A stretch of 64,000 nt of DNA from a virus. Its lineage: Duplodnaviria > Heunggongvirae > Uroviricota > Caudoviricetes. Under the pieces are notes generated by a model. That model had not been told where the DNA came from, did no database searches, and saw only the letters and a list, made by a program, of their open reading frames with translations. The position numbers and the translations under genes are program-made. The DNA lies in the IMG/VR virus record IMGVR_UViG_3300031344_000001. One strand, given 5' to 3'. Positions 23,026-33,008 of the stretch are shown piece after piece; position 1 is the stretch's first letter; each line of letters starts with the position of its first letter.

Positions 23026-23168
23026 CGCGAGGTACAGCACGACCGAGAGGAGCGGCATCCGAAGCATCGACCGACGCTAACGCATCAGGTCTGCAAGTAG
23101 TAGGGGGCCACAGGCACGGGCGCGTACCTCGCCGCGAGGTACAGCACGACCGAGAGGAGCGGCATCCG
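23026..23168. repeat. 36-bp direct repeat (23026..23061, 23133..23168)
   Basis: CGCGAGGTACAGCACGACCGAGAGGAGCGGCATCCG twice. Confidence 0.85.
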
Positions 23169-23293
23169 TGACATCCCTCAACGCTAGCACCTAGCACCTC
23201 AGGTCTTCAGGCAGGTGCGCAGCGGAGCGGCGGGTGCCAAGGCGCGCGGGCGCGCACCTCGTACCCTCGTACCTGATCGAGGTTCGAGCACCA

Positions 23294-25010: not shown

Positions 25011-26027
25011 CTAGAACGGCAGCCGCACCGCATCCTTCACGTCAACACCGAGGCTCGCTAAAGCCTTCTTGATGTTGGTGACGGCCTCAGCCTTGGTGTA
25101 CTCGACTCCCTCGGCGAGGGTGTCGGATCCAGTGCCCCAGGTCGTCTGACCTTCCCGCAACTGCTCGACCACCCATGACCATTCATCATCATCAATCGCG
25201 GACAGTCCATAGCCGATCTTGCGGGGCTTGGTGAGCGCCTCGGCGATCTCGCGATCTAGCTGCTTCGGCGACTTCCTTGCCTCCGGCGGCTCCGGCGGCA
25301 ACGTCACGCTGATGTTGACCCACTGGTCTACGACGTTGACGCTTGTGCGCGCACCGGGCACGGCCTGTTCTACTGCGCGCGCGTGACCTTTTGCGGACTG
25401 CACGAACTTGCGGCTTGCTGGCGTGTCGGCATCTGGGTGGGTTCTGCCTGATGTGTTGTCGGCGGCCGAGAAGACGAAGTCTTCGTTTTCGGCGAACCCC
25501 GCCGTGCGCATGATGCGGCGGATTGTTTGCGCAGCGATCGCTTGGTTCACGCTGTCCAGTATAACCGCCGTTTTCGGGATTTTCAGCCGCGCTCCTCTGA
25601 CGGAGCGCGGAGCACCGCCCGGATCTGCGTGGTGATGACGAGCACCTGCACGATGATCTGATCGTCGGTCATGCCGTTGTCTCGAGAGGATCGCTCCCAC
25701 GCCGAGCTTCACCGACGCCGGCATTGACCACCGACCACGACGGCTCCAGCGACGATCAACCGGTAGCGGGGGCACCCCCACCCGCGGCTCGCCCTCATCG
25801 ACGACGTAGCGCAAGAACCACGGGGCCGGCAGCGCCCCGTCGTTCACCGCGCGAATGACGGCGGCGCGCGCGGTGGCGCCCATGCCCCCGAGGTAACGCC
25901 CGGGAAGGTACTTCTCCGGCACCGCAGCGCCGCGGCGGCGACACCCGCGTGGGCCTCCGTCAGCGCAGAGGCTGGAATACAGCGCGATGTCCCCGAGCAA
26001 GGCATGGCCGTCCATGCGAAGGAGCAT
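25011..26027 (-). CDS. hypothetical multi-domain protein with internal QLDREIA tag (start uncertain)
   Basis: ORF; shared motif at about 25232..25278. Confidence 0.6.
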   Translation of the reverse strand: MLLRMDGHALLGDIALYSSLCADGGPRGCRRRGAAVPEKYLPGRYLGGMGATARAAVIRAVNDGALPAPWFLRYVVDEGEPRVGVPPLPVDRRWSRRGRWSMPASVKLGVGAILSRQRHDRRSDHRAGARHHHADPGGAPRSVRGARLKIPKTAVILDSVNQAIAAQTIRRIMRTAGFAENEDFVFSAADNTSGRTHPDADTPASRKFVQSAKGHARAVEQAVPGARTSVNVVDQWVNISVTLPPEPPEARKSPKQLDREIAEALTKPRKIGYGLSAIDDDEWSWVVEQLREGQTTWGTGSDTLAEGVEYTKAEAVTNIKKALASLGVDVKDAVRLPF

Positions 26028-26084
26028 ACATCGAGGGGCCAGTCGCGAGCTGTCGCCTAGCGCCCAGAAGGGCAGTTAAAAAAT

Positions 26085-26210
26085 AAGAGCAGCCGAGTGA
26101 AGAGTGCTTGGATGAATGCAGGGAGTTTTGAAATCCCAACCTTCGGCTTCGTAGGCCGACGCTCTACCGTTGAGCTATGCGTGTGAGCACTCTAAGGATT
26201 GGCTGCTTCT
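26085..26210 (-). ncRNA. Y-RNA-like ncRNA containing tRNA D, anticodon (ACG) and T-like arms
   Basis: closing stems GCAGCC/GGCTGC and AGAGTGCT/AGCACTCT; T-run after. Confidence 0.65.
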
Positions 26211-26212
26211 CG

Positions 26213-26335
26213 AGGCGGATCTTGGAGTCGAACCAAGCGGCTTGTAGACATTCGACGTGTGTCTCCTCGCGGAGACGAGTGCCGCTGTCGGGATTTCTTC
26301 CAGTAAGAAGTGGGACACCGCGTCCCTTATCCGCC
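26213..26335 (-). ncRNA. tRNA-like RNA with very large (about 55-nt) variable region
   Basis: GGCGGAT/ATCCGCC acceptor; CTTGG-TTCGACT-CCAAG T arm. Confidence 0.65.
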
Positions 26336-26343
26336 AAAAACTA

Positions 26344-26480
26344 GGCCGCCGAGTTGAGAGTCCTGGATGCTTTTCAGCCTGTTTACGAGACAGGTGCCGG
26401 AACCGACCGGCGTTCAGATCCTCTTTCGAGGACTTGTGGGAGTTGAACCCAAGGCTTGTGAGGACTCTCGGTTGGTGACC
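26344..26480 (-). ncRNA. Y-RNA-like ncRNA with permuted tRNA-like domain
   Basis: GAGAGTCCT/AGGACTCTC stem; T arm first, then GAAA hairpin, then GG-loop hairpin. Confidence 0.65.
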
Positions 26481-26491
26481 GAGCGAGTGGG

Positions 26492-26520
26492 ACTTTAACC
26501 AATAGGAGGGTCGCTGTCAA
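26492..26520 (-). promoter_or_regulatory. promoter TTGACA-N17-TAAAGT
   Basis: near-consensus; upstream of the three ncRNAs. Confidence 0.75.
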
Positions 26521-26525
26521 GCAAT

Positions 26526-27095
26526 TCAGACGGCGACGACGCTGACCGGCGAGATCGAAAACCCGACCTTCTTCTTGTCCTTCAAGAAGAGCTGGACCGA
26601 GCGCGCCATGCACGCCGCCGTGAGTGCGATGAAGGGTAGGAACTCTCCATCCTCACACGTCGCGGCGCCCGCGCCGACCTCGCTGTCGATGACGAAATGA
26701 TCGTCCCAGATCGAGCGACCGAACTCACCGCCCGGCGCGAGCGCACCGTGGAGACAAGGCACGTTGTGCTCGCGCACGTAGTCCTGCACGAGCTTCCGCG
26801 ACGCCCCATTGTCGAGGCAGTCGACGACGAGCTCCGCGTCCTTCAGCAGGACGTCGACGTTGTTCTCGACGAGCTTGTGGCTCACGACCTGGAGGTTCTT
26901 CTTGAAGAGGAAGTCCATCACCTGCTTCAAAGCATCGACCTTGCTCTTCCCGACGCCCGGCTTGCCGTGGAACTGCGACATCACGTTCTTTTGCTCGACG
27001 CGGTCGAAGTCGACGACCTTGATGTCCGCCTTCTCGTTACGGATGAACTGGACCAGGTGGCTGCCCAGCGCGCCGGCTCCGACGATGACGATCAT
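26526..27095 (-). CDS. ThiF/MoeB (E1-like) adenylyltransferase
   Basis: VGAGALGS; DFDRVEQKN; K..L; DCLDN; ATCE. Confidence 0.9.
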   Translation of the reverse strand: MIVIVGAGALGSHLVQFIRNEKADIKVVDFDRVEQKNVMSQFHGKPGVGKSKVDALKQVMDFLFKKNLQVVSHKLVENNVDVLLKDAELVVDCLDNGASRKLVQDYVREHNVPCLHGALAPGGEFGRSIWDDHFVIDSEVGAGAATCEDGEFLPFIALTAACMARSVQLFLKDKKKVGFSISPVSVVAV

Positions 27096-27107
27096 GGGTG
27101 ACCTTCC

Positions 27108-28067
27108 TTAAAGGACATCTCGGTAAATCTTCCGATTGACGATGTTACAGATGGTCACCTTGCTGACACCGTAATGCCGGCCAAGAGCTGCTGCCGAAAC
27201 ACCCCGCGCATTTGCCTTGCGCACACGTCGCACCTGCGTAGGCGTCAAACGACGTAACGCGCGTCCTCTTGGTATCGCCGGGCGCACGTGTTTCAACTTA
27301 TAGGCGCAGCAACGTGGGACGTAGGGCCGGATCAGCTGGTTGAGCTTGAAAGCGTCATCCCGTCGATTAATTCTGACGACAGGCCCGTCCGTTGCCTGTC
27401 CTACGCTTGCGTGCACGTGGAAGATCTTCGAGAGACTGCGTGCAAGTCTACAAACGTCGATCCTCAAAAATCCTTGTGTACAAAACGCCATGGTCCCATT
27501 CGCGGAACCGGTGCCGTCACCGCAGTACCACAAGGCGACTGAGAGCGGCGTAATAGCGAGATCCTGCGGGACACGCTTCGCGCCATGCGGGTACCAACGA
27601 AGGCGCTGCTCCTTCGTTTCTTTGTACGTATGCGTGTAAAAAGTTCGATGCGCCCCGCTGCGCACCTGTCTACCTTTGATGACCGCTGCACGTTTTGGTG
27701 CACACGCGGGCGTAATTCCACACGCGATCTTTAAGTCAACGCACCGACGCAGGATCGCCCGAAGCCATCCAGCACGCCGCACTGACTGCGGCACCTGAAG
27801 TGCGCCTGCACGGTTGATACAACCATCACCTAGTAGGAGACCATCAACAAGCTCTTTGAACCTAGCCTCCTTGCTGGGGCTCAACCGCAACTCCTTGACG
27901 GTGTGCCGTTCTCCGGATGGTCGAATCTTCACGCCTGCCTCGCGCAGACGTTGAAGCACCGTGTTCAACGAACAGTGGTACCGCGGCGCTAGTTCCAGCG
28001 CGCTCGTCCCACTTTGATACGCGACGATGAGTGCGTTCGGATCTAGGAGCAGGCGCCGACGTGTCAT
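27108..28067 (-). mobile_element. free-standing LAGLIDADG homing endonuclease
   Basis: GLLLGDG and LWYCGDG motifs; HTH at both ends; lower GC. Confidence 0.85.
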
Positions 28068-28312
28068 CAGACGCCGAAGGGCGTCTTAGGCCTAAGCACC
28101 AAGCGAGCTGGAAGACCATCCCTCTCCGCGAACCGATCCACGACAAAGTCATGAAAATCAGCATTGGGGTCCGCGTCGATCCCGGGAATGCCGCCAGTGC
28201 GCACGGTTTCAGTCGCCCACGCCTTGACATCAGCGTCTGTCGCGTCGAAGGAGACCGGATCTCTGAGATCGCCGTTTTGACCGTTCACCGTAATGTTCAG
28301 CAACGCTTCCAT
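28067..28312 (-). CDS. ubiquitin-like (beta-grasp) protein ending KTPFG-V
   Basis: size; penultimate Gly; lies between JAB and E1 genes. Confidence 0.65.
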   Translation of the reverse strand: MEALLNITVNGQNGDLRDPVSFDATDADVKAWATETVRTGGIPGIDADPNADFHDFVVDRFAERDGLPARLVLRPKTPFGV

Positions 28313-28406
28313 GAGAAAACTCCCGATTGCAGGTTCTAGCACGTCATGTTTACGGACATCAAGGTCAGGTCAAGGGCAAAGGCCAAGGTCAGATCGCCTT
28401 GCAGCG

Positions 28407-28793
28407 TTACCCTGCGTTCACATTCGATAACCGCCGCAATTCGACAAGCCAACCAGGCTCTTCTGAAACGACCGTGACCCGATAGGAAATCTTGTCAGGT
28501 CCACCCCAGCGGAGCAGGACCACGTGGTCTGAACTGATGATCCACCAGTCGAGACGCTTGCCAAGCGCAGCCTCGATGGCCGCGAACGTGGTGACGTCCG
28601 AATACGAGGGGTCCGGAATGCCGGAACCCGGGTGACTGTGCGCGAACCCGAGCAGCTTGTCTTCCTTGAAGGCGTCCCAAAGGACCTGCCACAAGGTCCG
28701 GCTGTCGGGAAGACTCCCCGCCGTGCGCCCCTCGGGCAGATGCCAGAACAACGGGTTCCCGCTCTTGTCGATGACGACGCCCGCCTCGATCAC
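28407..28793 (-). CDS. JAB/MPN metallopeptidase
   Basis: E near N-terminus; HSHP...PSYSD. Confidence 0.85.
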   Translation of the reverse strand: MIEAGVVIDKSGNPLFWHLPEGRTAGSLPDSRTLWQVLWDAFKEDKLLGFAHSHPGSGIPDPSYSDVTTFAAIEAALGKRLDWWIISSDHVVLLRWGGPDKISYRVTVVSEEPGWLVELRRLSNVNAG

Positions 28794-28795
28794 GG

Positions 28796-29377
28796 CTAGC
28801 GATCCTTCACGACGGGGTTGCGCGGGATGCTGGCGAGCGTGTCGGCGACGCTCCGGTTCAGCTCCTGGTACGCGTACGAGACCTTCTGCGAGACCTCAAC
28901 GTAGTAGGGGTGCCGGAGCCACGCCGCGTAGGCCGTGTCCCCACGAACCTTGTTGCACTTCCGACAAGCCGCGACGAGGTTCGCCTCGATCGTGGGACCG
29001 CCGTCCTCCCAGCGCACGAGGTGGTCGACCGTGAGCGGCAGCTTCTCGGTGCCGCAGTAGCGACACATGAAGTTGTCCCGACGGTAGACGTTCCACTGGA
29101 CCTGCGTGTCGACCTGGCGCTGCGACTTGCGCGCGATCGCCTTGTACAGATCGCCGTCCTTGCGCTGACCGAGCACCTCGGTCTCGACGAGGTCGGCCTG
29201 CCGAAGCATCGCCTTCCAGTCATCGTGGGTCATCTCGACGAGCGTCGGGTCCTTGCCCTCGTCACGCGCCGATGGAAACGGGAAGTAGAACCCCGCGCCG
29301 TTCGAGTCGGTGTAGACCACGCCGACCATCTGGATGGTAGTGCCGATGTCCGTGAGCTTGATGTCCGAGAACTTCAT
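28796..29377 (-). CDS. HNH endonuclease domain protein
   Basis: RDNFMCRYCG..TVDH..GG....NLVAACRKCN. Confidence 0.85.
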   Translation of the reverse strand: MKFSDIKLTDIGTTIQMVGVVYTDSNGAGFYFPFPSARDEGKDPTLVEMTHDDWKAMLRQADLVETEVLGQRKDGDLYKAIARKSQRQVDTQVQWNVYRRDNFMCRYCGTEKLPLTVDHLVRWEDGGPTIEANLVAACRKCNKVRGDTAYAAWLRHPYYVEVSQKVSYAYQELNRSVADTLASIPRNPVVKDR

Positions 29378-29386
29378 GACCTCACC

Positions 29387-29968
29387 CTATTCCGGGATGT
29401 AGTGCCTGAACGTCAGGCTCACGCGGGGCGCCATCTTGCGATCGCCCTTCGGGATCTTGTGGAAGTAGCCGCGCTGGAAGAGCGTCGGCATCACGAACAG
29501 CGCGCCGTGCCCGAGGAGCTGTCTCTGGTCGGCAGGAATCTCCCCGGTCGCGCTCTGCGGCTTCCACCAGATCTCTCGCGCCTGCCCGAACGAGACCACC
29601 GCGATGGGGTGCTCGTGGTTCATGCCCGGCGAGTCGTCTGCGTGCCACCCGAGGTGCTGACCCGCATCCGCGTAGCGGTTGAGGAAGCAGACGTTGTACT
29701 GGCGCTCCTTGACCGCGAGCCCGAGCCCGTCGTGGATCAACGGCGCCGTGTTCAGGTGCTGGCGGATCACTTCGACCCAGGGCAAGAACGGCGTCGAGGC
29801 GTACGTGCGCACACCACGACCAGAGCCGTAGGTGTAGGTCAGCGGCGTCAGCGCCATGAAGCACTCCTGACGCGCCTCGGTGAACGTTCCCCAGGGGACG
29901 CTCGCGAGGTCTGCCGGCGAGGCGTCGGCGTAGTCAGTCACGTAGACAGGCTTCATGGCAATCCTCAC
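29387..29968 (-). CDS. AlkB-family 2OG-Fe(II) dioxygenase
   Basis: LNRY..GWHADD..HKIPK..RVSLTFR. Confidence 0.9.
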   Translation of the reverse strand: MRIAMKPVYVTDYADASPADLASVPWGTFTEARQECFMALTPLTYTYGSGRGVRTYASTPFLPWVEVIRQHLNTAPLIHDGLGLAVKERQYNVCFLNRYADAGQHLGWHADDSPGMNHEHPIAVVSFGQAREIWWKPQSATGEIPADQRQLLGHGALFVMPTLFQRGYFHKIPKGDRKMAPRVSLTFRHYIPE

Positions 29969-30897
29969 ACGTGTCGGTAGACGACGAGCTTGCCTTCACG
30001 CTTCGCCTGTCGAAGGACGGCAGGCAGCGACTCGAGCGTGAAGTACGTGTCGCCCTTTTCTCCGCTGTCGTGGTCGACCAGACAGATCCCAGAATCAATG
30101 ATGCCCAGCCGCTCGTTGCAGATGCACTCGTAGCGCGCACCGTCGAGCCGGTACTTGACCGCCCACTCGTTCTTGCGAACCTGGCGCGCGTCGAGGAGCT
30201 CGGCACCGGCGACTTGAAGAGCAGCTCGAGCCGCGGCGGCGAAGTCGTGGAGCGCCATCTCGCGACGACCCTCACCGTCCCCGAGCTTCTTCACCAACTC
30301 CTTGCGCCGCTCCTCCTTCTGGCGCTTCTCCTCCTCTTCTCGACGGACGCGCTCAAACTCGACGCGACGGCGCTCGGCCTCGGCACGCTGCCAGCTCTCC
30401 ATGCGGAAGGCGGCGTCGAGCGCCGGGGGCACGCTCTTGATAAACGCGACGGACGCCGCCTGATCGAGGAAGGCTTCGAGCACCTGGTCCTCTTGCCCGA
30501 GAGGCATCTCCAGCCCCTGGTAGACCAGGGGGCCCTCCGGGTTGACCCGGCCCGCACGCACGCGCACGAAGCGATCCAGCCCGTCGTCCAGCAGGAAGAC
30601 CTTCTCGGAGAACTTCGTGATGCGCCGCGGGTCCGGATCAACGCGAACGTCGTCCATGACGACGCGGTCACCCACCAGGTAGCCCCGCACGGAGTGCTTG
30701 AGCAACTCCGGCTGAGCGTCCGCAACTCCCTCGACACGCGCGCTCCGGTTGACGACCTTGAAGGTGAACCACCCGTGCTCTTGAGGCTGACGACCCTCGA
30801 TCGACCAGCGCTGCGCGCTGCCGAACAACGTCCCGCCGCCGAGCCACGGGAGGGTGACCCTCTCGTCGCCTGTCTGGAGTAGATCGCGCCAACCCAT
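29965..30897 (-). CDS. hypothetical protein in the vWA/ubiquitin operon
   Basis: ORF; coiled coil; DSGICL. Confidence 0.8.
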   Translation of the reverse strand: MGWRDLLQTGDERVTLPWLGGGTLFGSAQRWSIEGRQPQEHGWFTFKVVNRSARVEGVADAQPELLKHSVRGYLVGDRVVMDDVRVDPDPRRITKFSEKVFLLDDGLDRFVRVRAGRVNPEGPLVYQGLEMPLGQEDQVLEAFLDQAASVAFIKSVPPALDAAFRMESWQRAEAERRRVEFERVRREEEEKRQKEERRKELVKKLGDGEGRREMALHDFAAAARAALQVAGAELLDARQVRKNEWAVKYRLDGARYECICNERLGIIDSGICLVDHDSGEKGDTYFTLESLPAVLRQAKREGKLVVYRHV

Positions 30898-30900
30898 GCC

Positions 30901-31116
30901 TCAACCGATCACGACGCGCCGTGGATGATCCCACTTCCGCGAACGCACGACAGCATCGGCTACCCGAGGCAGCATCCGCGGGCCATCGGCCTCACGACCG
31001 GCGGCCACATAGTCGAGCGCGATGTCTGCCGCGTACTCTTCGTTCCAATCGGCCAGGTAGACCGGCAGGTCCTGAGGCATCGCCTGGAGCAGCTCGATCA
31101 ATCGAGCGACGGTCAT
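30901..31116 (-). CDS. small hypothetical protein (MTVARLIELLQAMP)
   Basis: start overlaps the vWA gene stop. Confidence 0.6.
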   Translation of the reverse strand: MTVARLIELLQAMPQDLPVYLADWNEEYAADIALDYVAAGREADGPRMLPRVADAVVRSRKWDHPRRVVIG

Positions 31117-33008
31117 CACGCTGAGGCGCCCACTGCCATTGATCGCGGCGAGAACGCCCACGCGGGCTTCACGAGCAAGTCCGTCTTGAGGATCGTGTCC
31201 ACGAGCGACACGCGCGGTGCAGCCGCGCGGACCGTGGCCCCCACCGGCGTCGCCGCCACGAGCGCGCGGAGCGTCCGCGGGATCGCGTAGACGTCGTCGA
31301 AGGTGTCCTCTCCGATCATGAAGCACGGGAGCCCGAGCGCCGCGGCCGTGCGCTCGACGCACCCGAAGTTCTGGCCCGGCAACCTGAGGAAGCCGAAGGC
31401 CGTGGGGCGCAGCCTGGACTGCGTCACGTACTCAGCGAACGCCCCATGCTCCCCGCCGTCGCCGACGAAGATGAACAGCACGTCCTCGTCCTCCTTGGGA
31501 GGAAACCTCGCCAATGCGAGGACGCCCGCGCCGTGCGCCGTGCCGCCCTCCGCCGAGATCCCCTTGAAGGCGTTCTCGACACCGGCTGCCGAGGCGTGCT
31601 TGATCTCGACCACGCGCCCCGCCGTGTTGAACACGGCGACGTGCGTGCGGTCCGGCGGAAAGCCCTGAACGGACTTGCTCATCAGGCGCTTCGCCTTCTC
31701 GATGGAGTTACCCATCGAGGACGAGATGTCGACGAAGAAGTAGAGCCGGAGGTTCTTCACCACCTGCTCGACGGCCTTCTGGAGCGCCGTGTCGGCCGCA
31801 CCCTGGAGCTGCTCCTGCACGGCCTTGGACTTCACGTTGCTAGCGATGTTCGCCGCGCGCATGTCGTCCTCGGCCTTCTTGAGGGCACGCTCCCACTTCG
31901 CCTTGACCTCCTTGACCTCCAGGAGCCCGAGCTCCTCGAGCGTGGGCGTGAGGATGATGAGGTCCTTGTTGGACAGGGAGCCCGACTCGACGGCGGCGGC
32001 CATGATGGCCCGCGTGACACCGAGCTTCTTCGGCAAGAGCCCGACGACCCGCTTCCAGTCCGGCTTCTCGGCGACGATCTTCTCGCAGACCTGCGCCTCG
32101 GTCAGCTCGTCCCAGCTCTCGGCCTTGGACATCTCGACGCCGATGAGCATCGAGCGCCGGCCGTCCTTTGCCTGATCCTGGGACCAGGTCAGCGCCTCGA
32201 AAAACTTCGGCGTCGAGGGCTTGTAGCCGACGGCCCGCGCGAGGTCCATCACCGTGCTCTTGAAGCCAGCCTTGATGAGGCCGTCGAGCATCTTGGGGTT
32301 CTCCTCGCGGAACTGGAGCCACTTCTCGACGACCTTCGCCCAGCGCCCCAGGAACGGGCGCCGGGCGGAGTGGCCGAAACCCAGCTCGCGGTTGACGGCA
32401 GCCACGCCCGGCACCTTCAAGAGGTTGTGGACGCGGAGCAGGAGCTTCGGGTTCAGATCTTTGCCGTCCCGCCGGTGGACGAGCAGCATCGCCTCACCAA
32501 CGTCGCGGAAGTCGTCGTCGTAGAACGACACCTTGCCCCCGTCGAGCACGGGGTCACCCTTGCGGGTCTGCACGAGCATGAATGCCGCGAGCACGACCTT
32601 GAGGTCGCGGTGCTCCTGCCCGAAGGCGTACGAGGCCCAGCGCGCAGCGAACTCGTTGTCCATCCGCCAGACCTCGGCGACCTGGCGGTACATCCACACG
32701 GCGACCTCGGGGAACAGCCCCGGCGCGCGGTACTCGCCGACCACGCGCCCGTTCTCCTCGACCTTCCGATCGGCGCGCATCACGCCCTTGCGGACCTTGT
32801 TCGTCTTCTTGCCGACCTTCGTCAGCTCGTAGACGACCTTCTGACCGTTCTCGTCCTTGTGCGTGACCGGCACCCAGCGCACGCCGACCGCGTGCCGCGC
32901 GTCCGCCGTCACCATGCCGGGACGGTTGTGGACCATGTGGTCTGCGTAGTTCAGGAGCGTCTGGAGGATCTTCTCCGCCGGGCCCAGCTTCTCGTTTGCA
33001 GTCGTCAT
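31116..33008 (-). CDS. vWA-domain protein with large helical N-terminus, Ro/TROVE-like
   Basis: MIDAS DISSS..GGT..GD; architecture and RNA-repair context; TROVE call is inferred. Confidence 0.7.
   Translation of the reverse strand: MTTANEKLGPAEKILQTLLNYADHMVHNRPGMVTADARHAVGVRWVPVTHKDENGQKVVYELTKVGKKTNKVRKGVMRADRKVEENGRVVGEYRAPGLFPEVAVWMYRQVAEVWRMDNEFAARWASYAFGQEHRDLKVVLAAFMLVQTRKGDPVLDGGKVSFYDDDFRDVGEAMLLVHRRDGKDLNPKLLLRVHNLLKVPGVAAVNRELGFGHSARRPFLGRWAKVVEKWLQFREENPKMLDGLIKAGFKSTVMDLARAVGYKPSTPKFFEALTWSQDQAKDGRRSMLIGVEMSKAESWDELTEAQVCEKIVAEKPDWKRVVGLLPKKLGVTRAIMAAAVESGSLSNKDLIILTPTLEELGLLEVKEVKAKWERALKKAEDDMRAANIASNVKSKAVQEQLQGAADTALQKAVEQVVKNLRLYFFVDISSSMGNSIEKAKRLMSKSVQGFPPDRTHVAVFNTAGRVVEIKHASAAGVENAFKGISAEGGTAHGAGVLALARFPPKEDEDVLFIFVGDGGEHGAFAEYVTQSRLRPTAFGFLRLPGQNFGCVERTAAALGLPCFMIGEDTFDDVYAIPRTLRALVAATPVGATVRAAAPRVSLVDTILKTDLLVKPAWAFSPRSMAVGASA

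What the first reader, a model, noticed from the sequence alone, without database searches (positions are those of the whole stretch)
26085..26520. Two homologous Y-RNA-like ncRNAs with different tRNA-mimic heads
Seen: downstream of a strong promoter, two RNAs share a bipartite closing stem (CC-AA..AGAGT.CT-CACA ... CATCC-A..ACTCT..ACTC-GG) and each is followed by a T-run. One head (26344..26480) runs T arm, closed GAAA hairpin, GG-loop hairpin, then a CTCGTAA anticodon-like hairpin. The other (26085..26210) holds D, Arg(ACG) anticodon and T-like arms. Established: bacterial Y RNAs (YrlA) join a Ro-binding stem to a tRNA-like module and lie near Ro genes. Inference: new Y-RNA-type partners of the Ro-like vWA protein, displaying anticodon baits.
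Basis: partly seen in the sequence, partly recalled or inferred. Interest (0 to 1): 0.85.

Follow-up and report, generated by a model that had tools for sequence, protein, structure and literature searches.

The report
Three tRNA-shaped phage Y-like RNAs
A giant phage encodes, behind one promoter, three small RNAs shaped like tRNAs that all carry the same conserved two-helix "handle" and lie just downstream of a very divergent Ro60-like protein gene. They are most likely a new branch of the known Ro60/Y-RNA system, not working tRNAs.

Summary
A sigma-70-like promoter (26520-26492) precedes three abutting structured RNAs, not two.

- **RNA1 (26487-26336):** a long bipartite closing stem encloses a T arm, a GAAA-closed acceptor-like hairpin, a D arm and an anticodon-like arm.
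the same molecule circularly permuted. It has an open 7-bp acceptor, and the handle forms a giant closed variable arm.
- **RNA2 (26211-26078):** the same handle joined to the degenerate acceptor (4 of 7 pairs) of an Arg(ACG)-like cloverleaf.

Covariance models found 19, 50 and 24 full-length relatives in related huge-phage contigs. Pairing was 94-97%, and 37/42, 34/35 and 28/30 pairs showed compensatory changes.

The RNAs always lie in one cassette: vWA protein, a 310-aa unknown, ThiF-like gene, then the RNAs. The vWA protein has no Pfam TROVE match, but its model matches Ro60 structures best.

Rfam YrlA is not matched, its GNCGAA motif is not conserved, and the handle sits at the variable-arm position. 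I read this as a new variant of the Ro60/Y-RNA tRNA-mimic kind. Binding to the Ro60-like protein and the "anticodon bait" idea remain untested. The scan noted the same RNA family earlier on another genome (e1-4043237).

The parts
26492..26520 (-). sigma-70-like promoter TTGACA-17-TAAAGT driving the RNA cluster
   Evidence: 10/12 matches; one site found against 0.2 expected. The -35 hexamer is invariant in six relatives.
26336..26487 (-). RNA1: a handle-closed, circularly permuted cloverleaf. Handle 5' strand 26484-26454; T arm 26451-26437; GAAA-closed acceptor-like hairpin 26436-26415; D arm 26411-26396; anticodon-like arm 26394-26378 (loop CUCGUAA); handle 3' strand 26370-26341; U-run 26340-26336.
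   Evidence: Fold. Model R1 found 19 full-length relatives. 94.2% of cells paired and 37/42 pairs compensatory. Alignment.
26211..26335 (-). MID: a tRNA-shaped RNA with an open 7-bp acceptor (26335-26329 with 26220-14). D-like hairpin 26326-26312; anticodon-like hairpin about 26310-26296 (loop only 4-6 nt here); giant variable arm 26289-26247, homologous to the RNA1 handle and capped by GCGA; T arm 26237-26221; discriminator U at 26213.
   Evidence: Model R3 found 50 full-length relatives. 94.9% of cells paired, 34/35 pairs compensatory, acceptor 100% paired. 13 of 50 are followed by N-CCA.
26078..26211 (-). RNA2: the handle (5' strand 26207-26179, 3' strand 26108-26088) closes a non-permuted Arg(ACG)-like cloverleaf (26184-26113) with a degenerate acceptor. 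U-run at 26087-26078.
   Evidence: Model R2 found 24 relatives. 97.3% of cells paired and 28/30 pairs compensatory. The acceptor has 4/7 pairs, whereas 37 of 40 tRNAs in the window have 7/7.
31116..33008 (-). Ro60-like protein (P0001, 630 aa): an N-terminal beta domain, an alpha-solenoid, and a vWA domain with an intact MIDAS site
   Evidence: AF2 model with pLDDT 87.6. The ten best Foldseek PDB hits are Ro60/TROVE structures. 1yvp gives Z 14.2 over 426 residues. D427/S429/S431 are invariant. No Pfam TROVE match. Language-model features of residues 95-418 lie nearest TROVE clusters at 0.86, a lead only.
29965..30897 (-). p310: a conserved unknown protein that always directly follows the Ro60-like gene
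   Evidence: tblastn synteny in 15 loci. The AF2 model shows two OB-like barrels plus a coiled coil. There is no significant PDB match.
29387..29968 (-). AlkB-like 2OG-Fe(II) oxygenase within the cassette
   Evidence: Pfam PF13532, E 5.5e-17. Also present in relatives.
26526..27095 (-). ThiF/E1-like adenylyltransferase, the gene immediately upstream of the RNA cluster
   Evidence: Pfam ThiF, E 2.6e-20. Within the loci fetched, it is found next to the RNA cluster in 18 of the 26 loci tested.

Best explanation
The locus is one transcription unit, running from the promoter at 26520-26492 to the U-run at 26087-26078. It encodes three members of a single family of tRNA-shaped non-coding RNAs.

All three carry the same handle: two helices around a conserved internal loop (5' side CC|AACM|GA, 3' side UC|AACUC|GG), followed by the motif YACAMGC where the handle meets the body. 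The handle is wired to a tRNA-like body in three ways.
- RNA1: the handle holds the RNA ends and sits where a variable arm would be. The acceptor stem is closed by a GAAA loop.
- MID: the acceptor is open like a real tRNA, and the handle is a closed giant variable arm. MID is the circular permutation of RNA1.
- RNA2: the handle extends a degenerate acceptor stem.

Shown here: the structures, their covariation, their homology, and their fixed place in a cassette made of the Ro60-like protein, p310, a ThiF-like gene and the RNAs.

Inferred:
1. The handle is the binding site of the Ro60-like ring protein, as the conserved stem of Y RNAs is for Ro60.
2. The L-shaped tRNA-like body, with its conserved T and D loops and a shape-conserved anticodon loop, recruits or occupies tRNA-handling proteins. 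These could be processing, repair or modification enzymes, or nucleases that target tRNAs.
3. The perfect acceptor/T minihelix of MID is cut by RNase P at its 5' end and by a 3' tRNA-processing enzyme. Because the genes abut, these cuts would also release RNA1 and RNA2 from the precursor.
For: Structure and conservation:
- Fold z-scores are -4.1 and -3.6.
- Covariance-model searches found 19, 24 and 50 full-length relatives of RNA1, RNA2 and MID.
- 94-97% of cells are paired, against 31-52% in slid controls. 37/42, 28/30 and 34/35 pairs have compensatory changes.

Homology of the handles:
- The models cross-detect each other's RNA.
- ACA[ACU]G is present in 18/19, 24/24 and 50/50 members, and CUCG in 18/19, 24/24 and 46/50.
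- The MID variable arm aligns by eye to the RNA1 closing stem.

tRNA-like body:
- The T loop GUUCRA is present in 19/19 RNA1-type and 50/50 MID-type members.
- RNA2-type loops are 7 nt in 23/23, with U33 in 20/23 and A37 in 20/23.

Ro60-like partner:
- Fold matches and an intact MIDAS site.
- No canonical TROVE gene in three 94-100% complete relative genomes.

Linkage:
- The gene order Ro60-like, p310, ThiF, RNAs runs on one strand in the loci that span it. It is compact in L042, a 5.5-kb contig.
- 11 of 12 further IMG/VR contigs with RNA hits carry the Ro60-like gene. In ten of them the RNAs lie 2.7-10 kb from it; in the eleventh, a provirus, they lie 66 kb away.
- The association persists down to 50% protein identity (L035, L041).

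Precedent:
- Y RNAs with tRNA-like domains lie near Ro60 genes in bacteria and phages (PMC4201824).
- A phage Ro60 binds two phage Y-like RNAs (PMC12135203).
- M. smegmatis YrlA is cut by RNase P and receives CCA, and YrlA and YrlB come from one precursor (PMC4201824).

Abutting genes: (L005 20161-21381).
Against: - No binding data exist. Linkage rests on synteny among related phages, which is not independent evidence.
- The TROVE assignment is at fold level only. Pfam and profile searches see only the vWA domain. The Ro60 Z-score (14.2) is no higher than that of vWA-only matches.
- The Rfam YrlA and Y_RNA models do not match.
- GNCGAAN0-1G occurs in only 6/19, 5/24 and 4/50 members.
- ThiF and p310 are linked just as tightly as the Ro60-like gene, so either could be the real partner.
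- In one provirus (L126) an RNA1-type gene lies 66 kb from a 28%-identical Ro60-like gene.
Confidence: 0.6

Rival explanations
1. They are unusual but genuine tRNA genes. On this reading the handle is a processing signal. RNA2 is a pre-tRNA with a leader-trailer stem. RNA1 is a circularly permuted tRNA gene matured by cleavage and ligation (RtcB is encoded near the cassette in relatives). MID is a class-II-like tRNA that is aminoacylated.
For: - RNA2-type bodies score as tRNA, up to 61 bits.
- Their loops keep the 7-nt shape with U33 and A37.
- MID-type acceptors are 100% paired, and 13/50 are followed by N-CCA.
- 4/19 RNA1-type genes have the layout acceptor 3' strand, N-CCA, linker, acceptor 5' strand.
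- RtcB lies within 10 kb in L003, L005/6 and L008.
Against: - The window RNA2 acceptor has 4/7 pairs, and none of the 24 relatives has 7/7. By contrast 37/40 array tRNAs have 7/7.
- The anticodon changes between close orthologues (ACG to AUC), and the whole arm is deleted in L008.
- The window RNA1 acceptor is closed by a GNRA loop with no CCA.
- The window MID loop has only 4-6 nt.
- In MID the handle sits in the variable arm, so tRNA end processing by RNase P and the 3' enzymes would leave it in place.
- The 'anticodons' CGU and ACG duplicate normal tRNAs already in the array.
Confidence: 0.12
2. The RNAs are real tRNA mimics, but their protein partner is another product of the cassette. Candidates are p310 (OB-like barrels) and the ThiF/E1-like enzyme with its putative Ubl/JAB neighbours. 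The vWA protein would then act on something else.
For: - ThiF is the immediate upstream neighbour of the RNA cluster in the window and its close relatives, and p310 always follows the vWA gene.
- p310 has two OB-like barrels, weakly like S1/CSD and Mpa inter-domain folds.
- NCBIfam lists tRNA ct6A37 synthase TcdA among the weak ThiF-family matches.
Against: - The p310 fold matches are not significant (best Z 5.9, Foldseek E 0.05).
- The ThiF-like protein matches generic E1 adenylyltransferases best, and TcdA only at E 6.6e-5.
- Only Ro60 has an established precedent of binding tRNA-like Y RNAs encoded next to it.
Confidence: 0.15
3. The RNAs act alone as decoys for host nucleases or other defence proteins that recognise tRNA anticodon loops, with no dedicated phage protein partner.
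For: The anticodon-loop shape is conserved while the triplet varies freely between phages. The RNAs occur in several copies per genome, interleaved with tRNA genes.
Against: This does not explain the strong conservation of the handle's internal loop and the YACAMGC motif in all three wirings. RNA1-type loops vary in length from 6 to 8 nt, and the window MID loop is not anticodon-like.
Confidence: 0.1

Closest known systems
YrlA (Rfam RF02553), the Y RNAs bound by bacterial and phage Rsr/Ro60 (Chen et al. 2014, PMC4201824)
   Same: - A small ncRNA with a long closing stem and a tRNA-like domain.
- RNA1 has the same order: T arm, closed acceptor-like hairpin, D arm.
- Encoded on the same strand a few kb from a Ro60-type gene.
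- Several Y-like RNAs are made from one precursor.
- Also found in phages.
   Different: - No match to the YrlA model in the window. Relatives reach 24-25 bits against a 69-bit cut-off, no better than adjacent tRNA pairs.
- The GNCGAAN0-1G motif is not conserved.
- The handle sits at the variable-arm position, and a separate anticodon-like arm is present, whereas in YrlA the Ro60 stem replaces the anticodon stem.
- Two further wirings (MID, RNA2) have no YrlA counterpart.
- The protein is not detected by Pfam TROVE.
M. smegmatis YrlA (7-bp acceptor-like stem, RNase P cleavage, CCA addition; PMC4201824)
   Same: RNA1-type genes of some relatives (L005, L061, L026, L035) have a 7-bp acceptor followed by N-CCA and a linker. 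This would give a two-piece or opened molecule after RNase P cleavage.
   Different: In the window lineage the hairpin is closed by a GNRA tetraloop and has no CCA. Processing has not been tested here.
Thermus phage phiLo phiRo60 with Yrl1 and Yrl2 (PMC12135203; PDB 9KOP, 9L5Y)
   Same: A phage-encoded Ro60 with phage-encoded Y-like RNAs nearby. 9KOP and 9L5Y are among the best structural matches of the window protein.
   Different: The phiLo Yrl RNAs were identified by a stem-bulge-stem fold and a CGAA motif, and no tRNA-like body is reported for them. The window RNAs lack a conserved CGAA motif and have full cloverleaf-like bodies.
Circularly permuted tRNA genes and permuted (two-piece) tmRNA genes
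   Same: RNA1 relates to MID as a circular permutation. The order is T arm, acceptor 3' strand, (CCA), linker, acceptor 5' strand, D arm. There is a weak Rfam tmRNA_permuted hit on a relative (31 bits).
   Different: There is no tag reading frame, no evidence of circularisation or trans-translation, and the acceptor is closed in the window copy.
D. radiodurans Yrn1
   Same: A Y RNA that combines a T arm with an anticodon-like hairpin (PMC4201824).
   Different: The order of arms is different, and no sequence or model match was found here.

Membership tests
YrlA (RF02553) | Scores at or above the Rfam gathering threshold (69 bits) | tested here: not met
   No YrlA hit at E<=10 in window 25700-26900. 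RNA1-type relatives score 24.5-25 bits over model positions 30-81 only. Adjacent tRNA pairs score 26-34 bits.
YrlA (RF02553) | 5' motif GNCGAAN0-1G in the Ro60-binding strand | tested here: not met
   RNA1 has ACCGAGAG and RNA2 has no such motif. Only the MID variable arm has GUCGAAUG. Across the family the motif occurs in 6/19, 5/24 and 4/50 members.
YrlA (RF02553) | tRNA-like domain in the order (V), T arm, closed acceptor-like hairpin, D arm | tested here: met
   Met for RNA1 only. RNA2 and MID have the normal tRNA order.
YrlA (RF02553) | The Ro60-binding stem takes the place of the anticodon stem | tested here: not met
   RNA1 has a separate 5-bp anticodon-like arm after the D arm, and the handle emerges between that arm and the T arm.
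YrlA (RF02553) | Encoded within about 4 kb of a Ro60 orthologue on the same strand | tested here: met
   The RNA cluster starts 4.6 kb downstream of the Ro60-like gene on the same strand. In related contigs the distance is 2.7-10 kb. The Ro60 assignment itself is at fold level.
YrlA (RF02553) | Bound by Rsr/Ro60 | not testable with these tools
   Needs RIP or EMSA.
Ro60 / TROVE protein family | Match to Pfam TROVE (PF05731) | tested here: not met
   No hit for the window protein or 10 relatives. No hit in six-frame searches of the relatives' records. The family profile matches only vWA sequences in the PDB.
Ro60 / TROVE protein family | Alpha-solenoid ring followed by a vWA domain with a MIDAS site | tested here: met
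   The ten best Foldseek PDB hits are Ro60/TROVE chains aligned over 527-580 columns. 1yvp_A gives Z 14.2 with 426 residues aligned. The DxSxS motif is invariant. The ring part could not be tested separately from the vWA domain.
Canonical tRNA | Seven-pair acceptor stem and an anticodon conserved among orthologues | tested here: not met
   RNA2 has 4/7 pairs, against 7/7 in 37 of 40 window tRNAs. Orthologues carry ACG or AUC, or have lost the arm.
Circularly permuted tRNA gene | T arm, acceptor 3' strand, CCA, linker, acceptor 5' strand, D arm, anticodon arm | tested here: not met
   The window RNA1 has no CCA, and a GAAA tetraloop closes the stem. The full layout is present in 4 of 19 relatives.

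The most novel reading that the evidence does not exclude
The handle-bearing tRNA mimics are a modular phage system in which one protein-binding handle is grafted on tRNA bodies in three wirings. Some members (MID-type, and the CCA-bearing permuted RNA1-type) would be processed like tRNAs and perhaps even charged. The set, with its freely changing anticodon loops, would serve as sensors or sacrificial substrates for host nucleases that target tRNAs, coupled through the Ro60-like ring to repair enzymes such as AlkB and RtcB.
Probability: 0.2. Interest if true: 0.85.

Novelty: new variant of a known kind. Interest (0 to 1): 0.64.

Why it matters
Ro60 and its Y RNAs are conserved from bacteria to humans, yet what the tRNA-like part of bacterial Y RNAs does is still open.

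This family offers a natural experiment. The same handle is attached to tRNA-like bodies in three topologies, with tens of covarying members, in phages that also carry full tRNA sets. That separates what must be the protein-binding module from the tRNA-mimic module. It also suggests that Ro60-like proteins and Y-like RNAs are more widespread in huge phages than Pfam and Rfam models reveal.

The abutting arrangement also gives a testable model for release of the RNAs by tRNA-processing enzymes.

Tried and rejected
- **Rfam:** gathering and E<=10 scans of the locus found only tRNA.
- **DNA search of 50,697 phage records with the locus:** only a 60-nt tRNA-Arg match. Megablast of 24 kb of the window found only tRNA-Asp fragments.
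- **Flanking 338-aa protein as a handle to relatives:** nothing in IMG/VR.
- **Sequence tests for TROVE:** Pfam, PHROGs and NCBIfam on the vWA protein gave no TROVE match. A profile search of PDB sequences saw only vWA.
- **Pattern scan ACAAGC-N(2-8)-GGTTCGAYTCC of IMG/VR:** too unspecific. Most of the 120 loci hold ordinary tRNAs. It was useful only after filtering with nhmmer and the covariance models.
- **p310 fold searches:** no significant match.
- **Gene context of the distant RNA1-type copy in provirus L126:** uninformative (RNR, CarD, PPDK).
- **RtcB:** not present in the 64-kb window.
- **Considered and rejected:** RNA2 as a working tRNA-Arg (acceptor 4/7; the anticodon is not conserved), and the U-run after RNA1 as a conserved terminator (it is not conserved).

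Full report
**What is there**

The finding lies on the minus strand. Reading 26560 down to 26040 gives, in order:
- the stop of a ThiF-like gene (26526);
- a promoter-like site, TTGACA-17-TAAAGT, at 26520-26492;
- three abutting structured RNAs;
- a U-run at 26087-26078.

ARAGORN and Rfam call only one piece of this, a 'tRNA-Arg(acg)' at 26184-26113 with 47.5 bits and a mispaired acceptor.

**The three RNAs**

RNA1 (26487-26336) folds as a long bipartite stem enclosing four hairpins (z -4.1):
- a T arm (UGGG/UUCAACU/CCCA);
- a hairpin closed by GAAA;
- a D-like arm with GG in its loop;
- a 5-bp hairpin with the 7-nt loop CUCGUAA.

RNA2 (26211-26078) has a homologous bipartite stem around a normal-order cloverleaf (z -3.6).

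Between them lies a third RNA, MID (26335-26211), which the finding does not describe. It has a 7-bp acceptor-like stem, a D-like hairpin, a small hairpin, a 43-nt arm and a T arm that sits directly against the acceptor 3' strand.

**Relatives**

The window belongs to a huge phage. Its vWA protein is recorded on a 461-kb contig.
- The nearest named relative is Virus Rctr197k, at 58% identity for that protein.
- I fetched the neighbourhoods of vWA homologues.
- A pattern scan of IMG/VR added further loci.
- In five close relatives all three RNAs and the -35 hexamer are conserved at 78-91% identity directly after the ThiF-like gene.

**Covariation**

| RNA | Model | Full-length relatives | Cells paired | Pairs with compensatory change |
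|---|---|---|---|---|
| RNA1 | R1 | 19 | 94.2% | 37/42 |
| RNA2 | R2 | 24 | 97.3% | 28/30 |
| MID | R3 | 50 | 94.9% | 34/35 |

Controls with slid partners gave 31-52% paired. The alignments were fitted to the models, which favours the structures somewhat. Even so, the gap to the controls and the number of pair types leave no doubt that the structures are real.

**One family, three wirings**

All three classes share a handle:
- an outer helix;
- an internal loop (5' side AACM between conserved CC and GA; 3' side AACUC between UC and GG);
- an inner helix;
- the motif YACAMGC at the junction with the body.

ACA[ACU]G occurs in 18/19, 24/24 and 50/50 members. CUCG occurs in 18/19, 24/24 and 46/50. 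R1 detects RNA2, and R2 detects RNA1.

The handle is placed differently in each class:
- In RNA1 it carries the RNA ends and emerges between the anticodon-like arm and the T arm, which is the variable-arm position. The acceptor is a closed hairpin.
- In MID the same sequence blocks form a closed variable arm (…CACUCG, helix, GCGA loop, helix, ACAC GUCGAAUGUC UACAAGC), and the acceptor is open. MID is therefore the circular permutation of RNA1.
- In RNA2 the handle continues from a shortened acceptor stem.

**Are they tRNAs?**

Evidence against working tRNAs:
- 37 of the 40 tRNAs called in the window have seven acceptor pairs. RNA2 has four.
- None of the 24 RNA2-type genes has seven.
- Among close orthologues the RNA2 triplet is ACG or AUC, and in L008 the whole arm is deleted.
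- The RNA1 loop reads CGU, UGU, AAU, UUG, ACG or CGA in six close relatives while its stem is invariant.
- The MID loop in the window has only 4-6 nt.

Features that do look tRNA-like:
- RNA2-type loops are always 7 nt, with U33 in 20/23 and A37 in 20/23. The shape of an anticodon loop is therefore kept while the triplet is free.
- MID-type acceptors are 100% paired, and 13/50 are followed by N-CCA.
- 4/19 RNA1-type genes carry acceptor 3' strand, N-CCA, linker, acceptor 5' strand. The window lineage instead closes the stem with GNRA, and two others close it with UUCG.

The family thus spans forms that could be processed like tRNAs and forms that cannot. M. smegmatis and Salmonella YrlA differ in the same way (PMC4201824).

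**Arrangement**

Genes of the three classes abut with 0-2 nt between them. This holds in the window and in L005 20161-21381. Cleavage at the 5' and 3' ends of MID-type units by RNase P and a 3' tRNA-processing enzyme would therefore also release the neighbouring RNAs. This step is inferred.

**The protein**

The vWA protein (630 aa) matches only vWA families in Pfam, and weakly. Ten relatives show no TROVE match either. An AF2 model built from 48 homologues (pLDDT 87.6) gives these results:
- Its ten best PDB matches are Ro60/TROVE structures from frog, human, Deinococcus and Thermus phage phiLo (E 5e-7 to 1e-5, 527-580 columns).
- VIA-align gives Z 14.2 with 426 residues aligned to 1yvp. vWA-only chains align about 165 residues at a similar Z.
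- The MIDAS residues are invariant.
- Language-model features of residues 95-418 alone lie nearest TROVE and DUF2828 clusters (0.86, a lead only).
- No canonical TROVE gene exists in three 94-100% complete relatives.

I accept 'Ro60-like' at fold level, with the caveat that the ring part could not be tested alone.

**Linkage**

The order Ro60-like gene, p310, (AlkB-like, homing endonucleases, small genes), ThiF-like gene, RNAs is kept on one strand in the fetched loci that span it. In L042 it fits within 5.5 kb.
- Of 12 further IMG/VR contigs with RNA hits, 11 carry the Ro60-like gene. The twelfth is a 6%-complete fragment.
- In ten of the 11 the RNAs lie 2.7-10 kb from the gene. In the eleventh, provirus L126, they lie 66 kb from a 28%-identical homologue.
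- These phages are related to each other, so this is conserved synteny and not independent co-occurrence.

**Comparison with what is known**

Y RNAs with tRNA-like domains near Ro60 genes are known in more than 250 bacteria and in 22 phages (PMC4201824). A phage Ro60 has been shown to bind two phage Y-like RNAs (PMC12135203). ROT/TROVE proteins were noted in a subset of jumbo phages (PMC7824862).

The present RNAs work like that kind, but they fail the membership tests for YrlA:
- no Rfam match;
- no conserved GNCGAA motif;
- the handle is not at the anticodon-stem position.

Two of the three wirings have no described counterpart. I therefore class the locus as a new variant of a known kind. 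The same scan reached the same reading on another genome (e1-4043237). I arrived at the three wirings before reading that note.

**Verdict**

- Best explanation: Y-RNA-like partners of the Ro60-like protein, confidence 0.6.
- Rivals: unusual real tRNAs (0.12); another cassette protein as the partner (0.15); stand-alone decoys (0.1).

Noticed in passing
L003:3929-4224, L007:4030-4842, L008:2759-3098, L034:3108-4011, L005:20161-21381: MID-type RNAs (tRNA-shaped, with the handle as a giant variable arm) occur in up to five or six copies per phage. Some sit inside the main tRNA array between tRNA-Phe and tRNA-Lys. The window has only one copy.
   Followed up: partly
window 29965-30897 (-): A 310-aa protein of unknown function always directly follows the Ro60-like gene. 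Its model shows two OB-like barrels, a 47-residue helix and a small alpha/beta domain. It has no significant PDB match (best Z 5.9).
   Followed up: partly
window 26526-29968 (-): Between the Ro60-like gene and the RNAs lie an AlkB-like oxygenase (29387-29968), an HNH gene (28796-29377), a weak JAB-like ORF (28407-28793, E 0.006), a LAGLIDADG gene (27108-28067) and a ThiF/E1-like gene. The homing endonuclease genes come and go between relatives.
   Followed up: partly
L007:15260-16170: In this relative the RNA2 gene after ThiF is broken after its first ~25 nt, and five tRNA-Leu genes lie downstream. RNA1 there lacks the T and D arms. An intact RNA2-type gene sits elsewhere, at 7855-7988.
   Followed up: no
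L008:16564-16685: This RNA2 orthologue has lost the whole anticodon arm, while the rest of the RNA is conserved.
   Followed up: no
L126:5590-5742 and 6145-6310 (-): A provirus contig with only a 28%-identical Ro60-like gene 66 kb away carries an RNA1-type gene (52 bits) and a 99-nt 'tRNA-Met' next to RNR, CarD and PPDK genes.
   Followed up: partly
L001 (Virus Rctr197k) 7816-10803, 23124-23186: The Rfam YrlA model gives 26-34 bits on pairs of adjacent ordinary tRNAs (T arm of one, D arm of the next). This is higher than on the true RNA1-type elements, so weak YrlA hits in tRNA arrays are false positives.
   Followed up: yes
window 12262-12617 (+): A phage-encoded tmRNA (172.6 bits) with the tag ANDNGAVAFAA, alongside the 40 tRNA genes that ARAGORN calls in the window.
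   Followed up: no
L003:1-984, L005:5735-7144, L008:20609-21929: RtcB RNA ligase genes lie within 10 kb of the Ro60-like gene in several relatives. None is present in the 64-kb window.
   Followed up: partly
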